A stretch of 64,000 nt of DNA from Thermomicrobiales bacterium (GCA_042408955.1 JBHOQQ010000088.1:650-64649), one strand, 5' to 3'; positions 13,952-49,365 are shown, counted from the stretch's first letter. Notes: a model not told the origin generated them from the sequence alone. Numbers and translations are program-made.

Positions 13952-13953
13952 TC

Positions 13954-32270: not shown

Positions 32271-32294
32271 TGCGGCTCGTAGTGTGATGGCTCA

Positions 32295-35745: not shown

Positions 35746-36240
35746 TTATTGCCTTAATCGCCGGGTTAGCAGCGCGACCATCCCCAGCGACAGGACAGCA
35801 GCGCTAACGCCGACGGCCAGCAGAGCGAGACTCCCTGGACCAGAGAGATCAACGAACACAACCTCAAGCAGACCTACACCGAGCGAGCAGGCAACGAGTA
35901 GCGCCATGGCTCGCAGCCGGCGCCACACAAGGCCCGTCTCCTCGTTACAATGCGTGCGCCGTTCCAGCGACCAATAGGCGAGTTCGGCCGTCAATAGCAA
36001 CGCCGATCCAAAAACAGCCGCGATGAGGTCGAGCGACTCACCGCGGATGTACACCGACACGACAAATTCGGCGCCAAGAATACCGAGTGCCCATACGACG
36101 CCAGAATGCCAATTCCATACGAGTGAGACTCCGAGCAGCACGGGCGCCACCAAACCGAGCGTCAGCAGACCCGCCGCATCGTGAGCGAAGAGCGCCGGAT
36201 AGGCGGCGAGCACCACTGACACGCCAATCGCCATGGTCAT
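35746..36240 (-). CDS. Membrane protein of the MoxR cluster
   Basis: Multiple TM helices, AELAYWSLE motif; immediately after the DUF58 gene. Confidence 0.65.
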   Translation of the reverse strand: MTMAIGVSVVLAAYPALFAHDAAGLLTLGLVAPVLLGVSLVWNWHSGVVWALGILGAEFVVSVYIRGESLDLIAAVFGSALLLTAELAYWSLERRTHCNEETGLVWRRLRAMALLVACSLGVGLLEVVFVDLSGPGSLALLAVGVSAAVLSLGMVALLTRRLRQ

Positions 36241-36245
36241 CGTGA

Positions 36246-37520
36246 TCAGGCGCGTGCCCGACGTGCGGATCGGCGGAATGCTTGAACCTCCTGTACAACG
36301 GCGTCGAGAGCTTGGCTCGCTTCCCACGCTCCAATCGGGACGCCCAGACGGCGAAACCGATCGCGCAGCAGCTCGCGCTCAAGGGCCCAAACGTGAATGG
36401 CGATATCCTTGGCTGGTCTCGCCGGCTGAGCGACGAATGGGATTGGCGACACTTCGATGATTGCCAGATCGAACCGCCGCGCTCGAAGATCGAACAAGGC
36501 GTTGATGGTTCGCTCATCCAACAGGGGCGTGATTGCCACGAGCAAGGCCTTCGGCGGAAGGGTGGCGGGTGGAATCACGTCGATCCCCTTCCAGGCGAAG
36601 CTCACCACCACCTCAGTGTCGATCAGCGCTTCAACGATTTGGTAGTACTGCGCCAACCCCATTGCGGGTCGCAGCCAGCGCAGGATACCGCCGAATCCGA
36701 TAAGTCCAACTCGGTCCCGCCGTTGCAGGTAACGCTCCGCGAGCGCCGCCGTGGCGCGAATTGCCTCGTCCAAGGTACCGTTGTTTCCGTGACGCGCCTC
36801 CGCGAACGTGTCGAGGAAGAGGATGATGTCAGTGTTCTGCTCCCGTTGAAACTCGTTGACGTACAATTCCCGTCGCCGCGTGCTGAGGCGCCAATTGACA
36901 CGGCGGACGCGGTCGCCGGGCGCGAAGGGCCGGACGTCGATGAATTCAATGCCGTCGCCTTTGGCCCGTGAGAGCTCGTTTCCTACGAAGACCTGAGTCT
37001 CGGACGCACGAATGATCGAGCGCAGAGCCGCCGGCAGCGGATAGACGCGCAGAGGACATTGCGGGTGGAAATGCACCTCTGTAACGAAGAAACCGAAGGT
37101 ATCGCGCGCACGCACATATAGCTCGCCGACAGCATAGCCACCCCAGCGACGACAGTGAATGACCCGGCGCATTCGCTGCGGTGCCGTTGTCGTGAGACTG
37201 CGCGCGTGAACGAGGGCGCCACCGTCCTCCTCCAGCCCTGGGGGTAGGCGCAGTACAATCTCCGCCCTCGCTACCGGCGCTGTTGCTTCAAGCATGACCT
37301 CGACTTCGACATCCTCGCCCTCCAGCGCCTGCTCGCGGGTAAGATTGACGACCGCCCGAATCCTGGGCATCTGGGCGAGTGCGAGGCCGATCCCAAGGGC
37401 TACCAGAAACGGTGCGGCGAGCAGGACCGGCTCTGCTCGCCGCAGCACCAGTCCGGTGCTGCATCCCGTTACGGCTAATGCGATATAGGCGGGGAGCTTC
37501 GGTGAGGCAAAGGTATTCAT
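36246..37520 (-). CDS. DUF58 (vWA-like) protein
   Basis: GIEF-DVRPF-PGD--RRVNW--S-R---L-VN, FLD, DRVG; ATGA overlap with moxR. Confidence 0.9.
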   Translation of the reverse strand: MNTFASPKLPAYIALAVTGCSTGLVLRRAEPVLLAAPFLVALGIGLALAQMPRIRAVVNLTREQALEGEDVEVEVMLEATAPVARAEIVLRLPPGLEEDGGALVHARSLTTTAPQRMRRVIHCRRWGGYAVGELYVRARDTFGFFVTEVHFHPQCPLRVYPLPAALRSIIRASETQVFVGNELSRAKGDGIEFIDVRPFAPGDRVRRVNWRLSTRRRELYVNEFQREQNTDIILFLDTFAEARHGNNGTLDEAIRATAALAERYLQRRDRVGLIGFGGILRWLRPAMGLAQYYQIVEALIDTEVVVSFAWKGIDVIPPATLPPKALLVAITPLLDERTINALFDLRARRFDLAIIEVSPIPFVAQPARPAKDIAIHVWALERELLRDRFRRLGVPIGAWEASQALDAVVQEVQAFRRSARRARA

Positions 37521-38503
37521 TGCTCACCTGGCCCCGCCTCGTCGATGGGCGGGGTGGGAACCTGCGTCAGGCAGTCGAGCACGATGTCCTCCGGACGTAC
37601 CCGCTGGACCCAAAGCTCGGGCCGGAGGATGATCCGATGAGACAGCGCGGGAACGGCGACCGCCTTCACGTCGTCAGGGACGACGTAGTCACGCCCGGCG
37701 AGGACAGCCCGCCCACGGGCCAGCTTCATCAGGGCGAGCGTGCCACGCGGGCTGGCCCCGACCTGAACTCGGCGGCTGGCGCGCGTGGCCGCGACAAGAT
37801 CGACCATGTAGTACGCGACAGCAGAGGAGACGTACACTTCCTCAACTGCTCGCTGCATTGCCACCAGGGTCGGACCGTCGACAATTGGATTGAGCTCGAT
37901 CTCATCGGTCTGTCGCTCGATCCGGTTGCGCAGCATCTGCCATTCCTCGTCGCGCGATGGGTAGCCAACGCCCGTTCGCAGCAGGAAGCGGTCGAGTTGC
38001 GCCTCGGGCAGGGGATAGGTGCCCTCGTACTCGATCGGGTTCTGCGTCGCCATGACAACAAAAGGAGACATCAACCGGTGCGTAATCCCCTCGATTGTCA
38101 CCTGTCGTTCCTGCATCGCTTCCAGGAGCGCCGCCTGCGTCTTAGCTGGGGCGCGGTTGATCTCGTCGGCTAGGAGGAAGTTCGTGAAGATTGGTCCAGG
38201 GCGAAACTCGAAATCACCGAGGCGCTGATTATAGATCAAGGACCCAGTCACATCCGCCGGCATCAGATCAGGAGTGAATTGGATTCGCTTGAAGTCAAGC
38301 CGGGCGACTTGGGCGAAGGATCGAGCGATCAGCGTCTTGGCCAATCCGGGGTAATCCTCAATGAGAACGTGACCGTCGGCGAGGATAGCTATGAGCACGA
38401 GCTCGGTCACCGCCCGTTTGCCAACCACCGCCCGTTCCACCTCGGTGAGCATCTGGCGTGCTAATTCAGTTACTTGCTCAAGTGCGAGCGTTGTGGCTGC
38501 CAT
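37517..38503 (-). CDS. moxR: MoxR family AAA+ ATPase
   Basis: EDYPGLAKT, RIQFTPDL, DEINRAPAKTQAALLEAMQE, ATQNPIEYEGTYPLPEAQLDRF, GASPR. Confidence 0.95.
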   Translation of the reverse strand: MAATTLALEQVTELARQMLTEVERAVVGKRAVTELVLIAILADGHVLIEDYPGLAKTLIARSFAQVARLDFKRIQFTPDLMPADVTGSLIYNQRLGDFEFRPGPIFTNFLLADEINRAPAKTQAALLEAMQERQVTIEGITHRLMSPFVVMATQNPIEYEGTYPLPEAQLDRFLLRTGVGYPSRDEEWQMLRNRIERQTDEIELNPIVDGPTLVAMQRAVEEVYVSSAVAYYMVDLVAATRASRRVQVGASPRGTLALMKLARGRAVLAGRDYVVPDDVKAVAVPALSHRIILRPELWVQRVRPEDIVLDCLTQVPTPPIDEAGPGEQ

Positions 38504-39050
38504 CCAGTCTCTCCAATGCCTCGACGACCGTCCACAATGTATCGACACTGATCCCAGGGCCGGCTCTATCCTGCACATCAATCGCTGGTGCAAGCAGCAC
38601 CCAGACAGGCTCACCGAGCGCGGCGCGGGCGGCCTCTGGCTCCGCGTCGATGTTGATGCTGAGATAGGAGGTGAGTCGCTGCGCGGCAATCTGGCGAAGA
38701 ACGGGTCGGAGTCGCGCCTGGAACTCTCGCCTGTCCCAACCCGCCGATGCCACGAGTCGCTCGATTTGGCGGAGCCGTTCTGGCGGTTCCGGTGGAACTG
38801 TCCACCGTTCTTGGGCCAGATCGAAGGCTGTCCGTCTGTGGATCGGGTGTGTCTTGGCAGCCACTCGCGCCGTGGTGCCCAGCGCCGTCAGTCCGACGAG
38901 TAGCAGCCACCAGCGGAGCGCTCGTGTGACCTGGTCCGGCCAGACCAGGGTCATCACCACGAGCCCCAAAGTGGCGAGCGAGGCGACAACGAGGACGGCA
39001 AGCGCTGCTTGTCTGACCCGGTCTGCGTAATTGTCGAAAGGACCGTTCAT
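38478..39050 (-). CDS. Membrane protein of the MoxR cluster
   Basis: Two N-terminal TM helices, then LRP-LR--A--RL...W and C-terminal V--LE-L. Confidence 0.7.
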   Translation of the reverse strand: MNGPFDNYADRVRQAALAVLVVASLATLGLVVMTLVWPDQVTRALRWWLLLVGLTALGTTARVAAKTHPIHRRTAFDLAQERWTVPPEPPERLRQIERLVASAGWDRREFQARLRPVLRQIAAQRLTSYLSINIDAEPEAARAALGEPVWVLLAPAIDVQDRAGPGISVDTLWTVVEALERLDGSHNART

Positions 39051-39057
39051 TGATGGC

Positions 39058-40065
39058 TCACAGCTCCTGCCGAATCGCAGTCACTGCCGCGATGGCTTGC
39101 TCTTGCATGGAGGGGATGATGTCATGCTGACTGAACCTGGCCAACTCAAACAAGCGGGTCAGGCGGCGGATCTCCCTCGCGCCCAGTCCAAGCTCTCGCA
39201 GGACACGCGCGGCGTACTCCTCTGGCGTCTCGACCTCGCGCCGGGGGAACCCGTGCCGTGCGAGAATGCGCTCCATTCGCACGTATGCTTTGATCACCGC
39301 GCGGCGTGGATCCCTCTCGCGGCGCAAGTCTTCTAAACTCTCATCCAGGGCTGCTGCCAGGTCCTGGGTGAGATCTGACGTGGCTGACTCCAGCGTCCTA
39401 GGCTTCTCCCAGGCTATTGTGCTCCCTCGGCGAAGAGTCCAGCCAGCGAGCGCAAGCGCTGCGACGCCGAGCATTGCAGCGGCCCCAATCGCCACCCAAT
39501 GGGAGCCGCGTGTGGCGACCGCCGGTCCCGTGGGGACGGGTTCACTCGATCGTGGCGGAGCGATGGGAGCAACCGGGCCGCCATCTCGCACCTGCGTTGC
39601 GGGAGATGAGGTATCGATCTGAGTGGTATACACCAGGGAGACCACTCCCGCGATGAGGAGGAATGGAAGCGCGGTCAGGGCGAATTTGACAGCCCAATGT
39701 ATCCTGACTGGCTCGGTGTACTCCTCGAACTCCTCCTCGTCCTTCCCTCGCCTCCGGCGCCGCGTCGGCCAAAAGATAAAAGCGAGGATTGCCGCGCCAA
39801 CTACTGTCGCAACCATAACGGCTACCACAATCACATTGTCGAGGACATTGATGGCCGTGGTGTTCGTTTGCGCGTGGGTGCTCGGGCTGGCATATGGCCG
39901 TGTCCCTACGAGGACAAGGAAGATCAAGAGAGTAATCGTGACGCCGGAAAATGCCAGGCGCACCGGCGGGCGCAGATGGCGAGCCGTGGCCGGTGCCACG
40001 GCGGGCATACCACCGCTCTTCGCGTTTTCCTCGATACCGGTGTATCGCAGATCAGTCGGCGTCAT
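39058..40065 (-). CDS. DUF4129 domain membrane protein
   Basis: TM segments, then DPRRAVI-AY-RME--L---G--R---ETP-EY--R...LT-LFE-ARFS-H. Confidence 0.85.
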   Translation of the reverse strand: MTPTDLRYTGIEENAKSGGMPAVAPATARHLRPPVRLAFSGVTITLLIFLVLVGTRPYASPSTHAQTNTTAINVLDNVIVVAVMVATVVGAAILAFIFWPTRRRRRGKDEEEFEEYTEPVRIHWAVKFALTALPFLLIAGVVSLVYTTQIDTSSPATQVRDGGPVAPIAPPRSSEPVPTGPAVATRGSHWVAIGAAAMLGVAALALAGWTLRRGSTIAWEKPRTLESATSDLTQDLAAALDESLEDLRRERDPRRAVIKAYVRMERILARHGFPRREVETPEEYAARVLRELGLGAREIRRLTRLFELARFSQHDIIPSMQEQAIAAVTAIRQEL

Positions 40066-40675
40066 AAGGTGAATTCCACCTGTCAGCGGGGTGTGCCACT
40101 TTCAGCACATCGGCGGCGGCACGGCGCACCGCTGCATTGGGATCATGCATTGCTGCCTGGTGGAGTGCCTCGTCTGCTGCCGGATGAGTAAAGCACCCAA
40201 GGGCCTGGACGGCCGCAATCCTCTGGCGAAGGTGGCGATGGCGCAGGACACCAGTCAAGGGCACGATGGCAGCTTCGTCTCTCAATTCGGCGAGCGCTTG
40301 GATAATTGCCATTGACACGTCGTCGGCATCGAGCCACCGGTCAAGCGCGGCGATCAGCGGCGCAACGGCGCCGCTCACCCGGCGCTGGCCTAGAATCTCG
40401 GCGCTGATCGCGGCGACATCGGGACGATTCTGCCTCAGGGCCGCGATCAGTTTGTCGTCGAACGTGTCCACATCTCGCTCCCGCGCACCGCGCGCCTCGT
40501 CTCGCCTCGCTGTAGCGCTGCTCGGGTCTCTTGATGGACAGGCTGCCGAGGCGGGAGGTTTGTCGAGCACCATGGTCCGTTCCTGGAGAGCACCTCTGAA
40601 CTGCTGTCGAGAGCGCTCATGTTGCTGATGCAGCGTCATGCTAATTCGAGCGAATCCCCGGCTCATCTTGGTCAT
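40052..40675 (-). CDS. HEAT/PBS-lyase repeat protein (start uncertain)
   Basis: AEILG...AVAPLIAAL, ALAEL...AIVPL, RIAAVQALG, DPNAAVRRAA. Confidence 0.75.
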   Translation of the reverse strand: MTKMSRGFARISMTLHQQHERSRQQFRGALQERTMVLDKPPASAACPSRDPSSATARRDEARGARERDVDTFDDKLIAALRQNRPDVAAISAEILGQRRVSGAVAPLIAALDRWLDADDVSMAIIQALAELRDEAAIVPLTGVLRHRHLRQRIAAVQALGCFTHPAADEALHQAAMHDPNAAVRRAAADVLKVAHPADRWNSPYDAD

Positions 40676-41843
40676 CCTGATCCGGCAGGTCGGGGCCGGC
40701 AGCCTCGACCGGCAGGAGCGTCAGCGCCTGCCGCAGGGTTGCAAAGACATCGAGGCTTTGGGCTGCGGTAACTGGAGGAAATTGCACGAGGCCGCCCGGT
40801 TTGGCGCCAAGCCGCCAGGCCACATGTGTCTCCAACACCGACCGGCGCAGCTCAATGGAGGTTACCTGAGTCAGTGGATAGACCAACACTTCCCCCTTAT
40901 CTGGAAGAGAGACGACGAAAAGGTGCTCCTGTGTCACGGCAATGAGGCGGGGGCCCTCGCCAGTGTCAGGGATCATGGCCAGGGCGCGGACACGCCTCGG
41001 AGCTCCATCTGGGCCAGGGTACCTGCGCAAGCTATCCAAAAGGCGCTCTTGAAGTGCCGCGCCGAGCGCCGGATCGACGACATCGGTGACGCGCGGGCGA
41101 GATCGCTGATTGGGCGTTCGTGAAACCAGCGTCTGCAGATGATTGCGCGGCGCGAAGAAACCAGGGAGTCGTGGCCGGCGCTCATCTGAGCGGGGAAGAA
41201 ATCGTTCGATCAGCGTCACCAGCGTTTCGATATCGGTGATTGCCTCTCCTGGAAAGATCCAGGTAATCGTCTCTTGAGCTTCAGACGCTCGCACCGCGAT
41301 GGCAAGCTGAACCCCCTTACCCGCGACTTTCTTCAACCAAGAGACATGAGCGAGTCGTTCATAGGTGGTCACGTCAACCGAGTATCCGGAGAAATACATG
41401 CCGGCCACCGGCTCTTCGTCATCGCGTAGAAGGAGAATCTGGCGAGTGGTGGCAAGGAGCAGCCCCTCCCGTGGCTGCCGCCCACCGGGGGTGAGCGCGC
41501 GGCTCAGCCGCGCGCGCCAGCTATCTGTTGCCCGGTCACTCCAGGGAACGAACGCAAGGATCCGCTCATGCGGGAAGAGGTATTCCTCAGCGTACTTGAG
41601 GAAGCGCCCGGAGAGGCGGTAGAGCGAATATTCAGCATCAGTATTCCGGTCTGCGTGGCGGTCGAGCGGCCGCAGCCGCTCGAGATGAACCGGCGAGATG
41701 CTCCCCTCTTCCTGTCCCGCCCAAATGGCTGCCACGGTCCGCCAGGCAGGTTGGACAGGGCGACGTAACGCCTCGCGCCGCGCTGGCGGAGTGGAGGTCG
41801 TGTGGGCGGAAGGTGAGGGGATCTGTGGGGTTGACTCGATCAT
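40641..41843 (-). CDS. Hypothetical protein
   Basis: 400-aa ORF with AGAGG RBS, in operon orientation; no motif recognised with confidence. Confidence 0.6.
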   Translation of the reverse strand: MIESTPQIPSPSAHTTSTPPARREALRRPVQPAWRTVAAIWAGQEEGSISPVHLERLRPLDRHADRNTDAEYSLYRLSGRFLKYAEEYLFPHERILAFVPWSDRATDSWRARLSRALTPGGRQPREGLLLATTRQILLLRDDEEPVAGMYFSGYSVDVTTYERLAHVSWLKKVAGKGVQLAIAVRASEAQETITWIFPGEAITDIETLVTLIERFLPRSDERRPRLPGFFAPRNHLQTLVSRTPNQRSRPRVTDVVDPALGAALQERLLDSLRRYPGPDGAPRRVRALAMIPDTGEGPRLIAVTQEHLFVVSLPDKGEVLVYPLTQVTSIELRRSVLETHVAWRLGAKPGGLVQFPPVTAAQSLDVFATLRQALTLLPVEAAGPDLPDQDDQDEPGIRSN

Positions 41844-41903
41844 CTGGATTCCTCTAGGAGATTTGCTCTGCCGTGGCGTGTCATTGCCCCCTGGGCCGCT
41901 GCA

Positions 41904-42422
41904 TCAGGGGTGCTTCTCTGCGCGTTGCAGCATCACGCGGACGATGTCGGCACGGCCAATCACGCCAACGAGCTCACCATTGTTGACAACCAGAACGGGA
42001 TGAACGCCCCGATTGGCCATAATCGCCGCAACCTCGATGACGTTTGCCTCCTCGCTAACGCTAACCACCGTACGGCGCATGACCTTCTCAACGGGTGTTA
42101 GCGGCAGGCTGCTCGCCTTTTGGTCAAGGGAGTCGTATCGAAGAATCGGCATCGGGCTAGCGTGAGGTAACGGCGCTCGCAAGATATCCCGGATGCCGAT
42201 GACCCCAGCGACATGGCCATCTTCATCGAGAACGGGCAAGGCGTTGACGCCGTGGTCAACCATGAGTTGGGCGGCATCGGCCAGCGATGTGCCGTGCTGA
42301 ACCGTGATTACCGATCGCTGCATGATCTCTTTAGCGTGCACGATCGAGTTGCTTGTCTCGGGCAATGGTCGCGATGTCGTGCTCAATCGGTGCCGGCTTG
42401 GGCCATGGCGTGAGGGATTCAT
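41904..42422 (-). CDS. CBS domain pair protein
   Basis: AKEIM...V--LPV-D--G-V-GVI---DI and VEKVM...V-VV--GELVGVI-RADI. Confidence 0.88.
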   Translation of the reverse strand: MNPSRHGPSRHRLSTTSRPLPETSNSIVHAKEIMQRSVITVQHGTSLADAAQLMVDHGVNALPVLDEDGHVAGVIGIRDILRAPLPHASPMPILRYDSLDQKASSLPLTPVEKVMRRTVVSVSEEANVIEVAAIMANRGVHPVLVVNNGELVGVIGRADIVRVMLQRAEKHP

Positions 42423-42440
42423 CGGAACGCTCGCTCCTTT

Positions 42441-42863
42441 CTAGCGCACGATCAGCACGGAACAGGCAGCGTGCCGGCTGACCTTGTCGGTCGTCGTGCC
42501 TAAGAACGATCCCCAGACGCCAGAGTGTCCGCTGTGGCCGAGCACGATCAGGTCGTAGCCGCCGGTCTTCGTGTGCTCGGCCAAAGTCTGCGCCGTGTGG
42601 CCGTGCACGATCTTCGCTTCGACGCTCACGCCGTGCTCGGCAGCGATTTGCCGCGCGTGCTCTTGCACTTGCCGCATGTAGGCTTCTGCCGCCTCGCTCT
42701 CTTCGTTGACCTCACCCACAGTGCCGGCGTAACGCGCGGCCGGCTCGATCACCGAGAGCGCATGCAGGGCGGCGCCGAATTCTCTCGCCAGCGCGGCTGC
42801 CACCTCCATCGCACGCATTGAGCCCGCGGAACCGTCGAGCCCGACCAGGATCTTGCGGAACAT
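42441..42863 (-). CDS. Universal stress protein (UspA family)
   Basis: MFRKILVGLDGS...DLIVLGHSGHSG-WG-FLG-T-DKV-RHA-CSVLIVR. Confidence 0.92.
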   Translation of the reverse strand: MFRKILVGLDGSAGSMRAMEVAAALAREFGAALHALSVIEPAARYAGTVGEVNEESEAAEAYMRQVQEHARQIAAEHGVSVEAKIVHGHTAQTLAEHTKTGGYDLIVLGHSGHSGVWGSFLGTTTDKVSRHAACSVLIVR

Positions 42864-42876
42864 CGTCTGCCTCTTT

Positions 42877-44118
42877 TCAATCATTCACCGTGGCTGGCTG
42901 AAATGCCTCTCGTTCCGGCAGCCCACTGGACGTTGCCCGTGCTACCTCCGCCGGCTCAACCGCGGGGACAGCTGGACGGAAGAACGACTGGGCGATCAGT
43001 GTTGGCACGACGGCGCTGCCGATGACAACCGTGACGAGGATGGTGTATTGCTCCTGGTCAATGATATGGTTTGTCAGCCCAAAGAGAGCCGAGATTGTGC
43101 CGAAGGTCAGTCCTGTGCTCATCAGCAACGTCGTATAGACGCCATTACGTGGAATCATTTGGAACGCGCGCGTCAAGGGCCACACGCCCAGGGTCTTGGT
43201 GACCATCTTGAGGGCAAGCAACACGACGATGAGCCCGAACCCCGCGACAAAAGCTGAGAGCGAGACATAGCTGCCGGCCTTGAGAAAGTAGAAAGGCGTC
43301 AGCAGGGAAAAGGTAATCGAGCGCATCCGCGTGGCGAGCGTGCGGTCGCGCAGGAAGGTGCCGGCGATGACTAGTCCGACGAGATACGCTGGAAGCACCG
43401 CCTCGCTCCGTGCCGTCGTGGCGAAGCCGCCGAGGAGAAACAAGATCAGAAAAAGGAACTTGATCTCCGGCTCGCTGACCCGGTGACCGTAATGAGCCAG
43501 GATCCAGCGAGTCACACGGCCAAGATGCCAGAGTACGAACGCGGTTACGACGACAAAGACCGCCAGCCAGGAGTTGAAGTTGGCGAAGATCAGTCCGAGC
43601 GCTAGGACAGTGCCAAGATCGTTGACGAAGCAGGCGGCAAGGATGAGTTTCCCGAGATCCGTTTGATTCAGCCCAGTTTCGACCATGACCGCGTAGACGA
43701 CCGCGACCGACGTGGTCGAAAGGGCAATCCCTGCGATCTGGCTTGCGTGCCATGCCCACCCCGCAACGTAGTAGGCGAAGAGCCAGACGCCGGCAAACGG
43801 GAACAAGAAGGCGATGCCGCCGATCGTCAGGCTAGGCTTGATGTGGCGGCGTAAGCTCTCTGGATCGATCTCAGCGCCGGCAAGGAAGGTCAGGAGACCG
43901 GATCCGAAGGTGGCGAGGAAATCGATCCAGGGGGTTGTCTTCAGATTGAGAAAATTGCCTGCCAGCACACCGATGAAGATCTCAGCGAGCGCGACCGAGA
44001 TGCCTACCCTGATCGAGATGAGGCTAGCAATCAAGGCGAGCCCCATCCACGCGGCCGCGACGAACCACACGTTCCGGGCCTGACCGAGATTAACGATAGT
44101 GAAGGCAAGGGGAACCAT
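42877..44118 (-). CDS. Cation:proton antiporter (CPA2 / Na+/H+ exchanger family)
   Basis: GAGGAGG RBS; F-AG-EID, ALSTTSVAVVY, ACFVND, SE-VLPAY-G, TPFYF, MSTGLTFGTI. Confidence 0.9.
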   Translation of the reverse strand: MVPLAFTIVNLGQARNVWFVAAAWMGLALIASLISIRVGISVALAEIFIGVLAGNFLNLKTTPWIDFLATFGSGLLTFLAGAEIDPESLRRHIKPSLTIGGIAFLFPFAGVWLFAYYVAGWAWHASQIAGIALSTTSVAVVYAVMVETGLNQTDLGKLILAACFVNDLGTVLALGLIFANFNSWLAVFVVVTAFVLWHLGRVTRWILAHYGHRVSEPEIKFLFLILFLLGGFATTARSEAVLPAYLVGLVIAGTFLRDRTLATRMRSITFSLLTPFYFLKAGSYVSLSAFVAGFGLIVVLLALKMVTKTLGVWPLTRAFQMIPRNGVYTTLLMSTGLTFGTISALFGLTNHIIDQEQYTILVTVVIGSAVVPTLIAQSFFRPAVPAVEPAEVARATSSGLPEREAFQPATVND

Positions 44119-44205
44119 AAGCGGTACCTCCTCGCTTAGCGACATGGCCAGAATAATCGTCCACGCGTCGCTGCTTCGGGGTACCGCTGATCGGGAGCCG
44201 CCCAG

Positions 44206-44249
44206 AAACACAAAGCTCCTGCCCGTGCAGCAACGCGGGACCAGGAGCC
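44206..44249 (-). terminator. Riboswitch-linked intrinsic terminator
   Basis: GGCTCCTG..CCCG / CGGG..CAGGAGCT stem followed by TTGTGTTT. Its 5' arm is the aptamer's pseudoknot strand. Confidence 0.75.
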
Positions 44250-44319
44250 ATCACCGGCCATCTGACCGGAGTTTGGGTACGACCCATGTGCGTCGCACCC
44301 TGGCGGCCTCCATCGCCAG
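44242..44319 (-). ncRNA. Fluoride (crcB motif) riboswitch aptamer 1
   Basis: CTGGCG-ATGGAGGC-CGCCAG (P1), two inserted hairpins, AAAC, P2 CCGGTCA/TGGCCGG, TGATGGCTCCTG; pseudoknot GGAG/CTCC. Confidence 0.88.
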
Positions 44320-44323
44320 CCTC

Positions 44324-44352
44324 ATTGTACTGCTCATGCCAATGTTCCGCAA
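44324..44352 (-). promoter_or_regulatory. Sigma70 promoter directly upstream of riboswitch 1
   Basis: TTGCGG-N17-TACAAT; the aptamer begins about 5 nt after the -10 box. Confidence 0.7.
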
Positions 44353-44378
44353 GGCTGGAGGAAGATGGAGGAGTACGG

Positions 44379-45668
44379 TCAGATTGCCGTGGTCAACGCC
44401 CCGAGCAAATCTGCTCGGTCAGCCATGCCAATAACCCTGCCGTGAGGATCGGTCACGATGACCATCTTGATGTGCTTGGCCAGAGCTTGGTCGATCACAT
44501 CAGCGATTGGGGCGTCCGCGGTCACGATGAGGAGCCGATCCACCGGCCGCATCACCTCGTGGGCACGCTCCGCGGTGCGCAGGCGCCTCATAGCCTCGTC
44601 CTCGGGAACATGGGGGCGTACCCTGCGCATCAATGCGGCAAAGAGGCCCGGATGCGCTGCCGGGGTCACCCGTTGCAGGAGATCGGTGTCGACAATCCCC
44701 CCGATGGGGCGGCCCTCCTCATCGACGACAACCGCACGATGCAGCCGCGTTGACATCACCGCGTTCAACACGTCCGCCAAGGGCGCATCCGGACGCACCA
44801 TCGGCACGTCACGGTTCATGATCTCGCCGATGCGGCGTGGGGTCCGGTGCCAATACGGAGCCGTGGGGTGCTCAGGTGATGGAGCAGCCAGCGTAACGGT
44901 CTTGAGGATATCGAAACGGCTAAGTATGCCAAGTAAACGGCCGTGTTCGTCGACGACCGGCAGGCGTTTTAGCCGCATCGTCAACATGAGCCGTGCTGCC
45001 TCATCCAGAGGCATGTCCGGACCAATGGTCATAACATTCGGCGTCATGATCGTCGCTGCTGTGCGGCCCTCACCCTCGAGCGCGGCAAGATGCACGGCAA
45101 CGCGCGGATCGTCCGCCTCCCCGAGCGCCCGCAGCAGTTCTAGGCGCAGCGGCAGCCCAGCCCGCCTCACGAGATCACTGTTCGTTATCATGCCGACGAC
45201 GAGCCGCTCATCATCGACAACAGGAACGGCGTTACGCCGCTTTCGCAGCAGCAGGCGAACAACGGCTAGCAGGTCCGCGCCAGGCTGAACTGTGTCGACC
45301 CGCTCGGCGGGGGTCATCACATCACATACGCGGAGCCTTGCCGGCACGGTGCGCAAGACGGGGCGGGGCCATTTGACCACGCTCACTTCTTCGATCGTAA
45401 TCAGGCCGTCAACCAGTTCTTTCAATCGTGGCAAGCAGCGCGCGATGCGTTCTGAAGTGTCAACCCACTCAACCACAACTGGTAGCGGTCCCGATAGATC
45501 GACGAGCGAAGCAGTATGAATCTGCCCGTGGACTCCGAACCCCGCAATTCCCTTAAATGCGCTTGCACCGGCGCCTCCTTCTCGCCGCAGGGTCTCGAGG
45601 ATAGCCGGAACAGGACCGTCTTCTGCGAGATAGATACGAACGCGGTGTGCATTCTGTGCGGTATCCAT
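44379..45668 (-). CDS. DUF190 (PII-like) domain fused to four CBS motifs
   Basis: GA----GIAGFG--G-IHT--L-DLS--LPVVVEWVD, then four CBS repeats. Confidence 0.88.
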   Translation of the reverse strand: MDTAQNAHRVRIYLAEDGPVPAILETLRREGGAGASAFKGIAGFGVHGQIHTASLVDLSGPLPVVVEWVDTSERIARCLPRLKELVDGLITIEEVSVVKWPRPVLRTVPARLRVCDVMTPAERVDTVQPGADLLAVVRLLLRKRRNAVPVVDDERLVVGMITNSDLVRRAGLPLRLELLRALGEADDPRVAVHLAALEGEGRTAATIMTPNVMTIGPDMPLDEAARLMLTMRLKRLPVVDEHGRLLGILSRFDILKTVTLAAPSPEHPTAPYWHRTPRRIGEIMNRDVPMVRPDAPLADVLNAVMSTRLHRAVVVDEEGRPIGGIVDTDLLQRVTPAAHPGLFAALMRRVRPHVPEDEAMRRLRTAERAHEVMRPVDRLLIVTADAPIADVIDQALAKHIKMVIVTDPHGRVIGMADRADLLGALTTAI

Positions 45669-45839
45669 TGGTTTCGTTTGGGTTTGGCTGGATTCTGCTT
45701 ATCTCCGTCTTCTGCGGGTGACCGGCTTGCGAGCGCTGTCAATGTGGCTAGAACGTTCTTATGGCCGAATCACCAAGTTCGGTTGATCGCCCCAATGGTA
45801 CGACACCCGGACGCGGTCGGCGGCGGGTATCTGCCCTCT

Positions 45840-48800
45840 CTACGACGCGGCCGGAGCGGTGGTGAAACGAGCGAGCGATGCTTTGGGCGCCGTGCCAAAA
45901 ACCCGGAGATACGCATCGGCCCCAAAACTCGTCGGGAGCGGTTCGCCTTCAAGAATTCGGAACGTTCGCTGGCCGTTAGGCAACCGCTCGGCGCGCAAGA
46001 ACATAGCCCGGGCAAGGTGATCCGCTTGCGCCTGATTGAACACCAGCCGCGCTAGGTGATACAGGTGCGTAACAAAGAAAACCTTGATACCTTCGTCGAG
46101 CAGAGCGTGGATGACGTGACGAGCGATCTCCGATCCCTCTCGTTCGTTTGTGGCCGCGAACGACTCATTGCAGAGCAGCAGACTCGTGGGCACGATGTGC
46201 TTGCCAATTTCGCTCATTCTGCTCAGCTCCTCCTCGAATTTTCCGAGCTTCATCGTCGGATCTTCTTCCCGCTTGAAATGGGTGAAGATCTGCTGGCAGA
46301 CGTTGGCGTGGAATGACGTGGCTGGCACAAACATGCCACATTGCATCATCAACTGTGCGAGCCCCACGCTGCGGAGGAACGTTGTCTTGCCGCCCTGGTT
46401 AGCGCCAGTAATCATGACAAGGGAGATGCCGTCGGCCATCACGTCATTGGCGACGGGCTGGCCAGCCAGATGAAGCGCCAGGGTGGGGTCATACAGCCCA
46501 CGGGAACGAAACATGGGCCTATCTGCTGGAAGCGGCGTGGGGAAAGATATGGCTGCACCCTTGGCAGTGAGCCGCTGATGCAAGTTCATACAGCCCAGAT
46601 AGAAGGCAAGTTCAGTTCGGAGCAGCGCGAAGAAGTCGCGAATGTGATCGGCAGATTGTGCGAGAGCGTTGGCCACCGCGTTGAGCCCCTTGCCTTGGAG
46701 GGTTTCCAGGCTACGAAAGCCGCTCTCGTCACGGTCTGGAACGGTGAAGCTATAGCTCGCTTGAGCGGGGCCGATCAGCCGCTGGAGCCAAGTCCGATGC
46801 GGAGCCTGATGGAGAATCTGACGTGCCGGCTTGTTCCCCGGGCCCAGTCCGGCACTCATGAAGACACCCTTGTTCAGTTTCAACTCGGAAAGATGTTGGG
46901 CGATGAGCGCGAAATAGGCGTCATCGAGCTCGCGCTGAAGCATGGTGAAGAACTGGGTAAACCCTTCAGACCGGAATTGCTGACCGTAGGCATCTGCGAT
47001 CGCCCGCAACCTTCGCAGGAGGCCGGCATACAGCTCCATCATCTGCACCGATCGGTGAAGGATCGAGCCAGGAGAATCGCGGAGCCAGCCATAACGCACC
47101 TGTCGCTCAACATGAACGCCCTCGACAGCGATCTCGTAGAGTTGCCGCACAATATCAGGGAATTCAAGGCAATCGGTCAGGATTTGCTGGCGATACATGA
47201 TCGTTTGTGGATCCTTGAGACTAGAGAGCACAGCGTTCTTTGCCACCCCGAGGAGGAAGGCATCGCCGCCAGCCATGGCGTCAAAGATGGTCGTGAGCTC
47301 CAAATCCGCGATGAGTGTGTCGGCGTGAGGCGGTAGCGTGTCCTCTTCATCAACATCCCGATCTCGATACATGAGAAAAACCTTCATCACCCCGTTCGAT
47401 CTCGGAGTAGGCTGGGACGGCGGCGCGCTTGCAGCGCGATGGTTCTGAGCAATGCGCTGGCGGAGGGCATCATAGGTGAGCGCATATTTCTCTGCGAGGA
47501 CGGCCGCGTAGGCGAGGCCATCGGCTGGCTTCCGGACGATGCGAAATGTGCGCTTGGCAGGGTTCTCCGGCACGACGGTACTGACCATGCTCACCGTTTC
47601 CGGGCCGAGGGTGGACAGCTCATCGATGAATGTCACATACACACCGATCAGACCCCGGGCGATGAGCTCGTTCAAGACCGCGGTGCCTAGCAAGATGGCG
47701 TCGTCCAGTGTCGTGGAGCCGAAGCTTTCGTTCATGATGACGATACTGCGATCGGTTGCCTGTTGAAGAATGTCTCGGATGCGCGTCAGCTCATCTTCCA
47801 GTTTGCCTCGCAGATTCTCGATATGCTCTTCGCGCTCGAAGTGTGTGAACAGGCGGTCGGGCAAGAAGAGCTGAGCCGTGGTAGCGGGAACGAGAAGACC
47901 GAGAGTGGCAAGGTAGTGCAGTTGACCGAACATGCGCGCAAACGTCGTTTTGCCGCCCTGGTTTGGTCCGGTGACCACGATGATGCGCTCCGGACCATGG
48001 AGATCGAAATCGTTGAGGACTACGGACTCGCCGCTGGCGATCAGTCGCTGGGCCAGGGCAACATCAAATCCGCCAGTGACCGCGATGTCTTTGGTGTCCG
48101 CGGATATCGTCGGGTAGCAAAACGGCAGGTTGGCATGTTGGAATCGAGAGATATACTCGAGATATGCCACATAGAATTGCACTTCCCGGTCAAATGTGCT
48201 GATGAGAGGATCAATAAAATCGCGATATTTCGTGCAATATTCGTGCAGCGGCACAAAGATGTCGGGATAGAGGCGGTCGACCAACTCGACGATGCGCGCT
48301 TCGACATGATCCATTTCTGGCCATTCCGGCAGCCGTACGCGGTAATCCTTAACCGCGCCACGCCGGAATTTTGCGAAAACCGTTTCGATCTCGGTGCTGT
48401 AGTCTGGCTCGTTCTCGTATCGGCTCACGGTCACCCGACCCCCACGGACGTGGAGGGTGTAGCGGACCGAGGCAAGTGCCTCACGGCGCGCGCTCGTGTT
48501 GTCATGAAATTGGGTAAAGGCGTCTGACGTAATGTAGGACCGTAAAGAGTTGTGAAACGCCTGAAGACCGGCTGACCGCAGGTCGGTCTGCGAGAGTGCG
48601 TTCGCGAGCGAAATGACGGCATCGCAGTAGGTCGCAGCGGCGTCGAGGAACCAACGCTCGCGTTGTGGGAGGTAATGCGCCTTCTGCGATTGGGCAAGAG
48701 CGTCGCGCATGGCGCGCATCTTCTCGGCGAATGCCCGAACGGCCGCAACAACGAGAGGCCGCTCCAGGTCGCGCAGGATCGCTTGGCGATACTGGATTGC

Positions 48801-48980
48801 CTCTGGATGGTGCAAGGGGGTGTAATAGAATGGTTTGAGATGATATTCGTCTCGTCCAGCAGTGATTGTTGCCACCACCTGATCCAGGTTCAAATCACGG
48901 AAGTGCAGAGGCTCTTCCGATTGGAGGTTATCCAGGGTGGTATCACCAGGCGGGAACAAGATGCTGCGAAACGAATGCAT
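45840..48980 (-). CDS. Tandem (fused) MutS domain V-type ATPase
   Basis: Two similar halves: TGPNQGGKTT...THFEREE...GKLEDEL...MNESF-ST and TGANQGGKTT...THFKREE...GKFEEEL...CNESF-AT. No mismatch-binding domain I or Smr domain is visible. Confidence 0.88.
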   Translation of the reverse strand: MHSFRSILFPPGDTTLDNLQSEEPLHFRDLNLDQVVATITAGRDEYHLKPFYYTPLHHPEAIQYRQAILRDLERPLVVAAVRAFAEKMRAMRDALAQSQKAHYLPQRERWFLDAAATYCDAVISLANALSQTDLRSAGLQAFHNSLRSYITSDAFTQFHDNTSARREALASVRYTLHVRGGRVTVSRYENEPDYSTEIETVFAKFRRGAVKDYRVRLPEWPEMDHVEARIVELVDRLYPDIFVPLHEYCTKYRDFIDPLISTFDREVQFYVAYLEYISRFQHANLPFCYPTISADTKDIAVTGGFDVALAQRLIASGESVVLNDFDLHGPERIIVVTGPNQGGKTTFARMFGQLHYLATLGLLVPATTAQLFLPDRLFTHFEREEHIENLRGKLEDELTRIRDILQQATDRSIVIMNESFGSTTLDDAILLGTAVLNELIARGLIGVYVTFIDELSTLGPETVSMVSTVVPENPAKRTFRIVRKPADGLAYAAVLAEKYALTYDALRQRIAQNHRAASAPPSQPTPRSNGVMKVFLMYRDRDVDEEDTLPPHADTLIADLELTTIFDAMAGGDAFLLGVAKNAVLSSLKDPQTIMYRQQILTDCLEFPDIVRQLYEIAVEGVHVERQVRYGWLRDSPGSILHRSVQMMELYAGLLRRLRAIADAYGQQFRSEGFTQFFTMLQRELDDAYFALIAQHLSELKLNKGVFMSAGLGPGNKPARQILHQAPHRTWLQRLIGPAQASYSFTVPDRDESGFRSLETLQGKGLNAVANALAQSADHIRDFFALLRTELAFYLGCMNLHQRLTAKGAAISFPTPLPADRPMFRSRGLYDPTLALHLAGQPVANDVMADGISLVMITGANQGGKTTFLRSVGLAQLMMQCGMFVPATSFHANVCQQIFTHFKREEDPTMKLGKFEEELSRMSEIGKHIVPTSLLLCNESFAATNEREGSEIARHVIHALLDEGIKVFFVTHLYHLARLVFNQAQADHLARAMFLRAERLPNGQRTFRILEGEPLPTSFGADAYLRVFGTAPKASLARFTTAPAAS

Positions 48981-49081
48981 CGTCGGTAGTCCTCATGTTC
49001 GGGTTCGCATGAGAGCGCTGATTCCCGCTGACCCTACGAACCGATGACTTCCTGATGCGCGGCTTGGGATACGCGCCCAAC

Positions 49082-49124
49082 AAAAATGGCCTCTACCGCT
49101 GCTGGTGCAGCCAGTAGAAGCCAT
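49082..49124 (-). terminator. Riboswitch-linked intrinsic terminator
   Basis: ATGGCTTCTACT(G)GCTGC-ACCA-GCAGCGGTAGAGGCCAT followed by TTTT; overlaps the aptamer 3' strand. Confidence 0.85.
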
Positions 49125-49178
49125 CAGCCGGCTAACCGGCGTAGCCGCCATCGCCTGCGGCCCGCGGGCCTCATCGCA
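49112..49178 (-). ncRNA. Fluoride (crcB motif) riboswitch aptamer 2
   Basis: GCG-ATGAGGCC-CGC ... GCCGG-TTAG-CCGGC-TGATGGCTTCTACTG; pseudoknot GAGGCC/GGCTTC. Very close to the remembered Thermotoga petrophila aptamer ends (GCGAUGAGGCCCGC...GCUGAUGGCCUCUACUG). Confidence 0.85.
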
Positions 49179-49214
49179 TCATCGCCGGTCGAGCAAACGC
49201 CGACCGGCACCTCC

Positions 49215-49244
49215 ATTGTAGCGGCGTGCGTGGTCCGGTGGCAA
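49215..49244 (-). promoter_or_regulatory. Sigma70 promoter upstream of riboswitch 2
   Basis: TTGCCA-N18-TACAAT. Confidence 0.65.
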
Positions 49245-49365
49245 CCAGGGCGCTCGACCGGATCAGGTTTGGCGACTGCTCAGTATTTGCTAGACTTGCA
49301 AGCGGCCGCCATGCGGGTATCGCGTGGACGCCGTGCCAAGCACGGTGAGATAGCCGGCGCGGGGA

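What the first reader, a model, noticed from the sequence alone, without database searches (positions are those of the whole stretch)
35746..49244. Two-riboswitch fluoride regulon with no canonical fluoride exporter
Seen: two complete promoter-aptamer-terminator units about 4.8 kb apart on the same strand. One leads double-MutS then DUF190-CBS; the other leads CPA antiporter, USP, CBS and more. No crcB/fluC or CLC-F ORF is recognisable in the window. Known: fluoride riboswitches are ON switches reported upstream of Na+/H+ antiporter, USP and MutS-like genes whose role in fluoride resistance is largely unexplained. Inference: an uncharacterised fluoride-stress system in which the antiporter may export F- or offset acidification from HF influx.
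Basis: partly seen in the sequence, partly recalled or inferred. Interest (0 to 1): 0.75.

Follow-up and report, generated by a model that had tools for sequence, protein, structure and literature searches.

The report
Two fluoride riboswitch operons, Chloroflexota
Two genuine fluoride-sensing RNA switches turn on a MutS-like ATPase operon and a cation/proton antiporter operon in a hot-spring Chloroflexota genome, which is an ordinary known kind of fluoride response because the genome keeps its normal fluoride channel genes elsewhere.

Summary
Two promoter-aptamer-terminator units lie 4.86 kb apart on the minus strand. RS2 (aptamer 49178..49114) leads a fused double MutS-like ATPase, then DUF190-CBS. 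RS1 (44317..44241) leads a CPA2-type antiporter, USP and a CBS pair. Both score below Rfam's cut-off (25.0 and 25.3 bits against 34). They are still real. Orthologous genes in relatives carry above-threshold fluoride riboswitches at the same place. All four helices covary. Each terminator overlaps the 3' pseudoknot strand. The low scores come from an extra hairpin between P1 and the linker. In RS2 that hairpin's loop mimics the P1 motif and misled the Rfam alignment. The hairpin already appears in the 2010 crcB alignment, so it is not new.

"No canonical exporter" is true only of the window. The genome has two crcB genes on another contig, beside a third riboswitch. The antiporter keeps the cation-binding Asp of CPA transporters, so fluoride export by it is unsupported. 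MutS, antiporter and USP associations are in print. Verdict: a real, well-formed new member of a known kind, of modest interest.

The parts
49215..49244 (-). Promoter-like site of unit RS2: TTGCCA, 18 nt, TACAAT
   Evidence: 10 of 12 matches to the consensus; coordinates checked. Consensus match only; no transcript data.
49114..49178 (-). RS2 fluoride aptamer: P1, pseudoknot, inserted hairpin, P2
   Evidence: RF01734 at 25.0 bits, E 0.0025, with P1 mis-assigned to the hairpin loop. Re-aligned by my own model R1 at 19.9 bits, E about 6e-5. The relative's MutS riboswitch has the same layout (L043 6664..6584). An X3 contig covers 49096-49300 with 0 differences.
49079..49124 (-). RS2 intrinsic terminator. 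Its 5' arm includes the pseudoknot 3' strand CUUC. A U-tract follows.
   Evidence: Fold (z -2.95); coordinates checked.
45840..48980 (-). Fused double MutS-like clamp ATPase, 1046 aa. Two MutS-core halves are joined by a 19-aa linker.
   Evidence: Two MutS_V domains. The halves are separate genes with an ATGA overlap in L043 and lie in two pieces in G113, G105 and G009. An X2 contig covers 47236-47634, across the joint, with 0 differences. Fold of half 1: pLDDT 91.4, best matches MutS and MutS2 core.
44379..45668 (-). DUF190 (PII-like by recall) fused to four CBS domains. It lies 171 nt after the MutS-like stop, with no terminator seen in the gap.
   Evidence: Pfam, (DUF190 82 bits, CBS 152.9 bits). 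Gap sequence. Terminator scan.
44324..44352 (-). Weak promoter-like site of unit RS1: TTGCGG, 17 nt, TACAAT
   Evidence: Read. It was not listed by the scan because the -35 hexamer matches only 3 of 6. Uncertain.
44241..44317 (-). RS1 fluoride aptamer with a 9-bp inserted hairpin
   Evidence: RF01734 at 25.3 bits, E 0.002. My own model R1 gives 65.9 bits, but RS1 was one of the 11 sequences the model was built from. P2 carries compensatory changes relative to the orthologues.
44206..44248 (-). RS1 intrinsic terminator. Its 5' arm GCUCCUG includes the pseudoknot 3' strand CUCC. The U-tract is TTTGTGTTT.
   Evidence: Fold (z -2.69); coordinates checked.
42877..44118 (-). CPA2-type cation/proton antiporter. 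The likely start is ATG 44118, after the ribosome-binding site GAGGAGG. The GTG at 44211 from the ORF list lies inside the terminator U-tract.
   Evidence: Na_H_Exchanger 139.1 bits. Start region. Profile match to NapA, E 4e-10. The [N/T]-D motif and invariant K339 are shown.
42441..42884 (-). Universal stress protein. It overlaps the antiporter stop by 8 nt.
   Evidence: Usp 115.7 bits. A USP follows the antiporter in 14 of the 16 class loci. G116, G119, G129 and T131 are invariant.
41904..42422 (-). CBS-pair protein, 18 nt after USP, with ribosome-binding site AAAGGAG
   Evidence: Pfam; sequence. tblastn at E 1e-8 gave one weak match, in L048 3.5 kb upstream of the antiporter on the other strand; no homologue lies downstream of the antiporter in any related locus.
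35746..41843 (-). Seven further co-directional ORFs: a 400-aa unknown, HEAT repeats, DUF4129, a 190-aa unknown, a MoxR AAA+ ATPase, DUF58 and a 193-aa unknown. Whether they belong to the fluoride-controlled transcript is uncertain.
   Evidence: Pfam. No convincing terminator between them. The run DUF4129 to DUF58 also follows antiporter-USP in L043, but in no other related locus searched.

Best explanation
The window holds two of this genome's three fluoride riboswitches. Each is a transcriptional ON switch. Without fluoride, a strong terminator forms whose 5' arm contains the 3' strand of the aptamer pseudoknot. With fluoride bound, the pseudoknot holds that strand and RNA polymerase reads through. 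That mechanism comes from the family's published work and is not tested here.

RS2 turns on a single-chain pair of MutS-core clamp ATPases and probably the DUF190-CBS protein behind it. RS1 turns on a CPA2-type cation/proton antiporter, its translationally coupled USP and a CBS-pair protein. RS1 also gates any read-through from the upstream operon.

Fluoride export itself falls to a heterodimer-type crcB (Fluc) pair on another contig, in front of which no riboswitch was detected. The window genes are therefore accessory, inducible fluoride-stress functions.

Inferred: the antiporter exchanges Na+ or K+ for H+ to manage the pH gradient that drives HF entry and fluoride trapping. Lowering the pH gradient while respiration restores the membrane potential would also favour fluoride exit through the channel. 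Also inferred: the USP and CBS proteins are nucleotide-sensing regulators. The role of the MutS-like clamp is unknown.
For: Homology of the RNAs:
- RF01734 matches at E 0.002 and 0.0025.
- All 3 order genomes with strong orthologues of the MutS-like gene have RF01734 above the cut-off upstream (48.8, 42.4, 35.8 bits).
- Of 16 class genomes with antiporter orthologues, 14 have RF01734 upstream, 10 of them above the cut-off.
- All 28 genome-contig loci that include the antiporter's 5' flank have a match to my model R1 just upstream on the same strand.

Structure, on 55 riboswitches:
- 95.2% of cells pair, against 77.6% in shuffles.
- 16 of 19 pairs show a change on both sides.
- Values for slid registers are far lower.

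Switch logic: each terminator overlaps the pseudoknot strand.

Exporter elsewhere: two CrcB genes on C99. No riboswitch was found on their strand.

Antiporter: Pfam Na_H_Exchanger. The profile hits NapA. D198 is kept in 17 of 18 sequences and K339 is invariant.

Dedicated paralogues: the genome has 3 other MutS_V genes and 2 other Na_H_Exchanger genes.

Literature:
- The crcB motif lies upstream of mutS and ion-transport genes (PMC2864571, passages).
- Na+/H+ antiporters are the next most common riboswitch-associated class after the exporters (PMC11139923, passages).
- A USP lies in a fluoride-induced riboswitch operon of E. cloacae (PMC5533749, passages).
Against: - Neither aptamer reaches Rfam's gathering score.
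- RS2's linker reads UA(C) instead of the usual GAA or AAA. Its P1 closes with a U-G pair. My own model scores it at only 19.9 bits. Fluoride affinity could therefore be weak or lost.
- RS1's -35 hexamer is poor.
- No RNA data exist for this organism, so neither fluoride response nor operon extent is shown.
- The direction and ion of antiport are pure inference.
- A 171-nt gap lies before DUF190-CBS. In L043 that gene lies apart, on the other strand and with no riboswitch of its own, so its control by RS2 is uncertain.
Confidence: 0.72

Rival explanations
1. RS2 is a decaying relic. It descends from a fluoride riboswitch but no longer binds fluoride. Its intact terminator would then simply keep the MutS-like operon low or leaky.
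For: The linker lacks the usual A-rich GAA/AAA. P1 has a U-G closing pair. Scores are low under both models (25.0 bits in Rfam with a wrong register; 19.9 bits with R1).
Against: All four helices can form. The pseudoknot GAGG:CUUC matches the type seen in other MutS-associated members. The closest relative's MutS riboswitch shares the odd linker (UUC) and the same architecture, which suggests a conserved subtype rather than decay. The downstream 1046-aa ORF is intact.
Confidence: 0.15
2. The antiporter is itself a fluoride exporter that replaces Fluc or CLC-F.
For: It is the transporter most tightly linked to the riboswitch in this clade (28 of 28 and 14 of 16 loci). Cation:H+ antiporter genes (flH) are conserved in actinomycete fluorinase clusters (PMC9173684, passage).
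Against: The genome has a crcB pair. In L067 the same antiporter sits directly behind crcB-crcB-DUF190, so it accompanies the channel rather than replacing it. The cation-binding Asp and the TM10 Lys are kept.
Confidence: 0.05
3. RS1 controls one long transcript from the antiporter down to 35746, so the MoxR-DUF58-DUF4129 module is part of the fluoride response.
For: There are ten co-directional ORFs with short gaps or overlaps and no convincing terminator. The run DUF4129 to DUF58 also follows antiporter-USP in L043.
Against: Only this genome and one close relative show the adjacency. In the other related loci the antiporter-USP pair ends the cluster or is followed by other genes. The CBS pair has no homologue downstream of the antiporter in any related locus (its one weak match, in L048, lies upstream on the other strand), and the 400-aa and HEAT ORFs have no homologue in any. 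MoxR-DUF58 modules are common stand-alone clusters (my own knowledge).
Confidence: 0.25
4. The two RNA matches are chance resemblances in GC-rich intergenic DNA.
For: Both fall below Rfam's cut-off. Two similar-scoring matches elsewhere in the genome (C9 at 21 bits, C192 at 22 bits) lie inside long ORFs and look like chance.
Against: Both are intergenic, on the correct strand, with a promoter-like site and an overlapping terminator. They sit upstream of exactly the gene families whose orthologues carry above-threshold riboswitches.
Confidence: 0.02

Closest known systems
Fluoride riboswitch (crcB motif, Rfam RF01734), transcriptional ON type
   Same: P1, P2 and pseudoknot are present. So are the conserved GAUGG/GAUGA and (C/G)UGAUGGCU(C/U)CU blocks. 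A terminator competes with the pseudoknot. The 5'-UTR location and the associated gene families also match.
   Different: Both copies score below the curated cut-off. Both carry a hairpin between P1 and the linker. That hairpin already appears in several members of the original 2010 alignment. RS2 has a non-consensus linker.
Enterobacter cloacae FRM fluoride operon (ppaC-uspA-eno-gpmA-crcB-orf5249) under one riboswitch (PMC5533749)
   Same: A fluoride riboswitch drives a multigene accessory operon that includes a USP.
   Different: That operon includes the exporter crcB and fluoride-inhibited enzymes. Here the exporter lies elsewhere with no riboswitch detected, and the cargo is an antiporter and a MutS-like ATPase.
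flH (cation:H+ antiporter) and flJ (DUF190) of actinomycete fluorinase clusters (PMC9173684, PMC3999930; passages only)
   Same: A CPA antiporter and a DUF190 protein occur together in a fluoride-handling gene cluster.
   Different: Those clusters make organofluorines, and no riboswitch is reported there. Sequence relatedness of FlH and FlJ to the window proteins was not tested, because no sequence was at hand.
Thermus thermophilus NapA (PDB 4bwz, 5bz3), CPA2 Na+/H+ antiporter
   Same: Best solved relative by profile search (E 4e-10 over about 340 residues). The TM4 and TM5 motifs align.
   Different: NapA's DD motif reads ND here and N/T-D across the clade. phmmer with the single sequence found no solved structure.
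MutS2 core (Thermus thermophilus, PDB 7vuf) and MutS domains III-V
   Same: Each half folds as lever, clamp and ABC-type ATPase with a C-terminal helix pair. Walker A is intact in both halves.
   Different: There is no mismatch-binding domain I, no Smr and no KOW. Two halves are fused in one chain. The Walker B Asp is replaced by Asn in both halves and in all 46 aligned family members.

Membership tests
Fluoride riboswitch RF01734 | Score at or above Rfam's gathering cut-off (34 bits) | tested here: not met
   25.3 and 25.0 bits. This is an operational cut-off. The shortfall comes from the 25-nt and 18-nt insertions, from non-consensus linker and P2 letters, and for RS2 from a wrong register.
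Fluoride riboswitch RF01734 | P1 and P2 helices plus the pseudoknot between the P1 loop and the 3' tail, supported by covariation | tested here: met
   Both window copies form all helices. Across 55 members 95.2% of cells pair, and 3 of 4, 4 of 4 and 3 of 5 pairs of P1, P2 and the pseudoknot show a change on both sides. The alignment was fitted to my model, which favours the structure.
Fluoride riboswitch RF01734 | Conserved sequence blocks: GAUGG/GAUGA in the P1 loop, and UGAUG..CU(C/U)CU in the 3' tail | tested here: met
Fluoride riboswitch RF01734 | A-rich linker (GAA/AAA) between P1 and P2 | tested here: inconclusive
   RS1 has AAAC. RS2 has UA(C), and its orthologue in L043 has UUC.
Fluoride riboswitch RF01734 | Orthologous position upstream of gene families known to be associated | tested here: met
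   3 of 3 MutS-like loci. 14 of 16 and 28 of 28 antiporter loci. Literature.
Fluoride riboswitch RF01734 | Selective binding of fluoride and a fluoride-dependent change in expression | not testable with these tools
   No RNA run is listed for this DNA. Needs in-line probing or a reporter assay.
Fluc/CrcB fluoride channel | A gene matching Pfam CRCB (PF02537) inside the window | tested here: not met
   The six-frame search of the whole genome found only C99:45865-46206 and C99:46446-46781. None lies on the window's contig C46.
CLC-F fluoride/proton antiporter | Signature sequences GNNLI/GMGLI, GREGT/V and GEVTP (review PMC11139923) | tested here: not met
   The only CLC locus (C69, outside the window) reads GREGP and GIFGP and lacks the other signatures. 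It is also split over two frames.
CPA2 monovalent cation:proton antiporter | Pfam Na_H_Exchanger and NCBIfam TIGR00932 cut-offs | tested here: inconclusive
   The Pfam cut-off is met (139.1 against 26.2 bits). TIGR00932 is below its cut-off (114.8 against 238.3 bits).
CPA2 monovalent cation:proton antiporter | TM5 DD motif. That this motif defines electrogenic CPA2 is recalled, not taken from a call. | tested here: not met
   N197-D198 in the window and N/T-D in the clade. The second Asp is kept in 17 of 18 sequences. This resembles the ND motif of electroneutral exchangers.
MutS family | Domain V ABC-type ATPase with Walker A | tested here: met
   Two MutS_V matches. GPNQGGKTT at residue 338 and GANQGGKTT at residue 859.
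MutS family | Mismatch-binding domain I (MutS1 type) or Smr nuclease (MutS2 type) | tested here: not met
   No Pfam match other than MutS_V and weak AAA hits. All NCBIfam MutS, MutS2 and KamC matches are far below their cut-offs.
Universal stress protein, ATP-binding type | Pfam Usp, plus the G-2x-G-9x-G-(S/T) motif (the motif is recalled) | tested here: met
   Usp 115.7 bits. G116, G119, G129 and T131 are invariant in 18 sequences.

The most novel reading that the evidence does not exclude
The riboswitch-controlled genes may be fluoride-hardened stand-ins for housekeeping proteins.

- The MutS-like clamp family (over 1,100 clusters at E 1e-30 or better) carries Asn in place of the Mg2+-coordinating Walker B Asp in all 46 aligned members. 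The same holds in both halves of the window's fused protein.
- Such a site could resist trapping by Mg-fluoride/ADP transition-state analogues. These may poison the genome's three ordinary MutS-family ATPases during fluoride stress.
- In the same way, the N/T-D antiporter with USP and DUF190-CBS would form a dedicated fluoride module. That module would be shared with the flH and flJ genes of fluorinase clusters.
Probability: 0.1. Interest if true: 0.65.

Novelty: new member of a known kind. Interest (0 to 1): 0.25.

Why it matters
The finding adds a clean, well-delimited example of the accessory fluoride regulon (MutS-like ATPase, DUF190-CBS, CPA antiporter, USP), whose biochemical roles are still unexplained.

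It has three useful practical points:
- Real fluoride riboswitches with the optional hairpin can fall below Rfam's cut-off. The model can even align them in the wrong register, so regulons in Chloroflexota may be under-annotated.
- One antiporter clade is almost always riboswitch-controlled, across Chloroflexota and Alphaproteobacteria. That makes it a good target for transport assays.
- The MutS-like partners are a large family with an invariant Walker B Asn. They occur as a translationally coupled pair or as a fusion, which gives a concrete handle for biochemistry.

None of this changes the accepted picture of fluoride resistance.

Tried and rejected
- **Complex prediction.** Antiporter (residues 32-444) with USP: no verdict, score 0.02 against a mark of 0.32. 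This is not evidence either way.
- **Sequencing runs.** No RNA holder is listed. The DNA holders are hot springs metagenome runs of one study, one of which may be the source.
- **phmmer of the single antiporter against solved structures.** 0 hits. The profile search was needed.
- **Atlas search for the 400-aa ORF.** Best score 0.88 to unnamed clusters, and recognition below the usual level, so no lead. Pfam at E up to 1 gave nothing for it or for the 193-aa ORF.
- **Two further riboswitch-like matches in the genome.** C9:19020-19090 (21 bits) and C192:4598-4676 (22 bits with R1) lie inside long ORFs. I set them aside as chance.
- **Riboswitch before the own crcB pair or near the CLC.** None found at E up to 1 or with R1.
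- **Base composition.** The region has only slightly lower GC (0.58-0.62) than its flanks, which is no clear sign of transfer.
- **Literature.**
  - 'fluoride riboswitch' + 'DUF190': 0 papers.
  - 'fluoride riboswitch' + 'MutS': 1 paper, irrelevant.
  - The hot spring / Chloroflexi / crcB search: nothing relevant.
  - Baker et al. 2012 and Breaker 2012 are not held. What I say of them is recalled.
- **The idea that the extra hairpin is a new variant.** Rejected after reading part 107 of supplementary file 4 of PMC2864571 (crcB.sto). Several 2010 members have a hairpin at the same place.

Full report
**1. Observation**

The Rfam scan of the whole window at gathering thresholds found nothing. 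A permissive scan of 35000-50000 listed 8 matches. Two were to the fluoride riboswitch RF01734: 44326..44235 (25.3 bits, E 0.002) and 49164..49108 (25.0 bits, E 0.0025). The cut-off is 34 bits. The other six matches had E of 0.39 or more.

Pfam gives the following minus-strand genes:

| Coordinates | Content |
|---|---|
| 48980..45840 | 1046-aa ORF with two MutS_V domains |
| 45668..44379 | DUF190 plus four CBS domains |
| 44211..42877 | Na_H_Exchanger |
| 42884..42441 | Usp |
| 42422..41904 | CBS pair |
| down to 35746 | seven more ORFs: 400-aa unknown, HEAT, DUF4129, 190-aa unknown, MoxR AAA_3, DUF58, 193-aa unknown |

**2. Are the two RNAs real?**

Comparative evidence says yes.

- *MutS-like gene.* Strong orthologues occur in only 3 of 150 other genomes of the order. 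Seven of 151 pass E 1e-20, counting the window's own genome and three weak partial hits. All 3 have RF01734 above the cut-off upstream (48.8, 42.4, 35.8 bits).
- *Antiporter, class sample.* Orthologues of 64-70% identity occur in 16 of 300 other genomes of the class, and in 0 of the 62 sampled from the window's own family. Of those 16 loci, 14 have RF01734 upstream: 10 above the cut-off, 4 below, 2 with none.
- *Antiporter, genome contigs.* The scan gave 31 loci from Chloroflexota (70-80% identity), many Alphaproteobacteria (about 60%) and one Chthoniobacterales MAG. All 28 loci that include the 5' flank have a riboswitch just upstream on the same strand, by my own covariance model R1.

**3. 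Why the Rfam scores are low**

The Chloroflexota-type members carry a hairpin inserted between the 3' strand of P1 and the GAA/AAA linker.

RS1 has a 9-bp version with an 8-nt loop. Its P2 reads CCGG/CCGG where the orthologues read GCCG/CGGC, which is a pair of compensatory changes.

Rfam aligned RS2 in the wrong register. The loop of RS2's inserted hairpin reads AGGCGAUG and mimics the P1 motif. R1 re-aligns RS2 over 49187..49108 as follows:

- P1 UGCG/CGCG
- P1 loop AUGAGGCC
- hairpin GCCGC/GCGGC
- linker UA(C)
- P2 GCCGG/CCGGC
- 3' tail UGAUGGCUUCUAC

The MutS-associated riboswitch of the closest relative (L043 6664..6584) has the same layout, with linker UUC. RS2 is therefore a complete aptamer, not a truncated one. 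Its linker is atypical and its R1 score is modest (19.9 bits).

On an alignment of 55 riboswitches (fitted to R1, which favours the structure), one search gave:

- 95.2% of cells paired, against 77.6% in shuffles (0 of 500 shuffles reached the observed value).
- 40-55% paired in slid registers.
- All 6 pairs of the inserted hairpin showing a change on both sides.

About half of the rows (27-30 of 55) have letters in the hairpin columns. One of these, RS3 from contig C99, is a mis-alignment.

The hairpin is not new. Part 107 of supplementary file 4 of Weinberg et al. 2010 (crcB.sto) shows several members with a hairpin at the same position.

**4. Expression platforms**

The minimum-free-energy folds of both leaders show P1, the inserted hairpin, P2 and a long terminator hairpin followed by a U-tract (z -2.69 and -2.95).

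- *RS1.* The 5' terminator arm GCUCCUG (44248..44242) contains the pseudoknot strand CUCC.
- *RS2.* The arm AUGGCUUCUAC... (from 49124) contains CUUC.

This is the ON-switch design described for the class (PMC2864571, passages). The fluoride-binding mechanism itself is recalled from Baker et al. 2012, which is not held here.

A promoter-like TTGCCA-18-TACAAT precedes RS2. RS1 has TACAAT with only a weak -35, so its own promoter is less certain. RS1's terminator would also stop or gate transcripts coming from the upstream operon.

The ORF-list start of the antiporter (GTG 44211) lies in the U-tract. The likely start is ATG 44118, behind GAGGAGG.

Contigs from two other runs of the same study reproduce the RS2 region (49096-49300) and the MutS fusion joint (47236-47634) without differences. 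These runs are not fully independent of the probable source.

**5. The exporter question**

The whole genome (199 contigs, 96.7% complete) has two CrcB genes on contig C99, on the plus strand. It also has a third riboswitch above the cut-off (36.6 bits) at C99:45601..45539 on the minus strand.

That third riboswitch has its own terminator. It leads a DUF6062 protein and an MFS transporter, and is divergent from the crcB pair. No riboswitch was found on the crcB strand.

In three family relatives the arrangement is riboswitch, crcB, DUF190. One of them, G134, is flagged unpublished; the gene order stated for locus L083 rests on it.

The only CLC gene (contig C69) has GREGP and lacks the CLC-F signatures quoted in PMC11139923. 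It also looks frameshifted.

So 'no canonical exporter' is true of the window only.

**6. The wider island**

In the closest relative (L043, a Chloroflexia MAG with an 80%-identical antiporter) all modules are contiguous:

- MFS, DUF6062 and a riboswitch on one strand;
- DUF190-CBS;
- the two MutS-like genes and their riboswitch;
- then riboswitch, antiporter, USP, DUF4129, a 190-aa ORF, MoxR and DUF58.

Other loci show related mixes:

- L067 has crcB-crcB-DUF190, riboswitch, antiporter, two USP domains, then a MutS-like gene.
- L045 has six riboswitch matches in 15 kb.

R1 matched in 14 of 60 other genomes of the family at E 1e-4 or better. That count includes the unpublished G134 and G095; without them it is 12 of 58.

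**7. The proteins**

*Antiporter.* The best solved relative by profile is Thermus NapA (E 4e-10). NapA's DD motif aligns with N197-D198. The clade shows N or T, then D. The Asp is present in 17 of 18 sequences and K339 is invariant. This fits cation/proton exchange and gives no support to anion transport.

*USP.* It overlaps the antiporter stop by 8 nt. A USP follows the antiporter in 14 of the 16 class loci and in a little under half of the genome-contig loci. The glycine-rich motif residues are invariant.

*MutS-like ORF.* It is an in-frame fusion of two paralogous genes. These are separate, with an ATGA stop/start overlap, in L043, and they lie in two pieces in G113, G105 and G009.

- Each half belongs to a large family: 1118 clusters at E 1e-30 or better. 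One of the best 150 is of double length.
- Half 1 folds with pLDDT 91.4. It matches the MutS and MutS2 core, that is lever, clamp and ATPase; 7vuf_D has TM 0.66 normalised by target.
- No domain I, Smr or KOW was found.
- Walker A is intact in both halves. The Walker B Asp is Asn in both halves and in all 46 aligned members, and it aligns with the DEL of MutS2 and MSH3.
- The genome has three other MutS_V genes and two other Na_H_Exchanger genes. The window copies are therefore extra, inducible paralogues.

**8. Mechanism**

| Status | Claim |
|---|---|
| Shown | Homology and architecture of the two switches |
| Shown | Gene content and conserved linkage |
| Shown | Exporter genes elsewhere in the genome |
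| Inferred from the family's published behaviour | Fluoride-dependent antitermination |
| Inferred | The antiporter manages the pH gradient that drives HF entry and fluoride trapping |
| Inferred | The USP and CBS proteins are nucleotide-sensing regulators |
| Inferred | The two MutS halves form a single-chain clamp |
| Unknown | What that clamp acts on |

The published generic view of the antiporter is pH homeostasis (PMC11139923). My refinement is untested: H+ import in exchange for Na+/K+ would lower the pH gradient and shift the proton-motive force towards membrane potential, which drives fluoride out through Fluc.

DNA holders of the stretch are labelled hot springs metagenome. Geothermal waters are often fluoride-rich; this comes from my own knowledge, not from a call.

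**9. Comparison and novelty**

- The crcB motif upstream of mutS and ion-transport genes is in the 2010 paper.
- Na+/H+ antiporters as the second most common associated class are in the 2024 review.
- A riboswitch-driven operon with a USP was tested in E. cloacae.
- flH (cation:H+ antiporter) and flJ (DUF190) co-occur in fluorinase clusters.
- I found no paper linking DUF190 to the fluoride riboswitch by name (0 papers).
- The supplements of Baker et al. 2012, which I could not see, probably list these associations.

Verdict: real, well-formed and correctly spotted. It is a new member of a known kind, and its headline claim, no exporter, fails at genome level.

Noticed in passing
Own genome, contig C99:44039-47101 (locus L001), outside the window: A third fluoride riboswitch (36.6 bits), with its own terminator, leads a DUF6062 protein and an MFS transporter. 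It is divergent from two crcB genes that have no riboswitch of their own. DUF6062 and/or MFS genes also sit behind riboswitches in L043, L044, L045, L028/L029, G019 and G134 (the last is unpublished).
   Followed up: partly
window 45840-48980 (residues 417 and about 937); alignment A7: The Walker B Asp of MutS ATPases is replaced by Asn in both halves of the fused protein and in all 46 aligned family members. It aligns with the DEL of MutS2 and MSH3.
   Followed up: partly
Own genome, contig C69:8384-9420 (locus L011): The only CLC gene is split over two overlapping frames (423-aa and 380-aa ORFs). It has the GREGP chloride-type motif. It may be a frameshift, a pseudogene or an assembly error.
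   Followed up: partly
L045 (a MAG labelled Proteobacteria), 1-15179: Six matches to the riboswitch model lie within 15 kb. They sit in front of DUF6062, MFS, the antiporter/DUF190-CBS/USP run, and several ORFs without any Pfam family.
   Followed up: partly
window 49185-49207 (minus strand): A leader hairpin (CCGGUCG ... CGACCGG) lies between the predicted transcription start and the RS2 aptamer. Its function is unknown.
   Followed up: no
window 49366-50939 (plus strand): An ECF-type sigma factor (Sigma70_r2/r4) and an anti-sigma factor (zf-HC2, RskA_C) are transcribed divergently from the RS2 promoter region.
   Followed up: no
window 25983-33938: Nitrogen-assimilation genes: glutamate synthase large subunit (minus strand), a glutamine synthetase and a PucR-type regulator (plus strand). 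They are unrelated to the finding.
   Followed up: no
window 40641-41843 and 40052-40675 (minus strand): A 400-aa ORF with no family in Pfam, NCBIfam or the Atlas, and a HEAT-repeat protein. Both lie between the CBS pair and the MoxR module. Neither has a homologue in any related locus searched.
   Followed up: partly
window 61293-61308 (minus strand): A 16-nt match to the P1 hairpin alone (GGGGAUGGAGACCCC, 12.1 bits). It is most likely chance.
   Followed up: no
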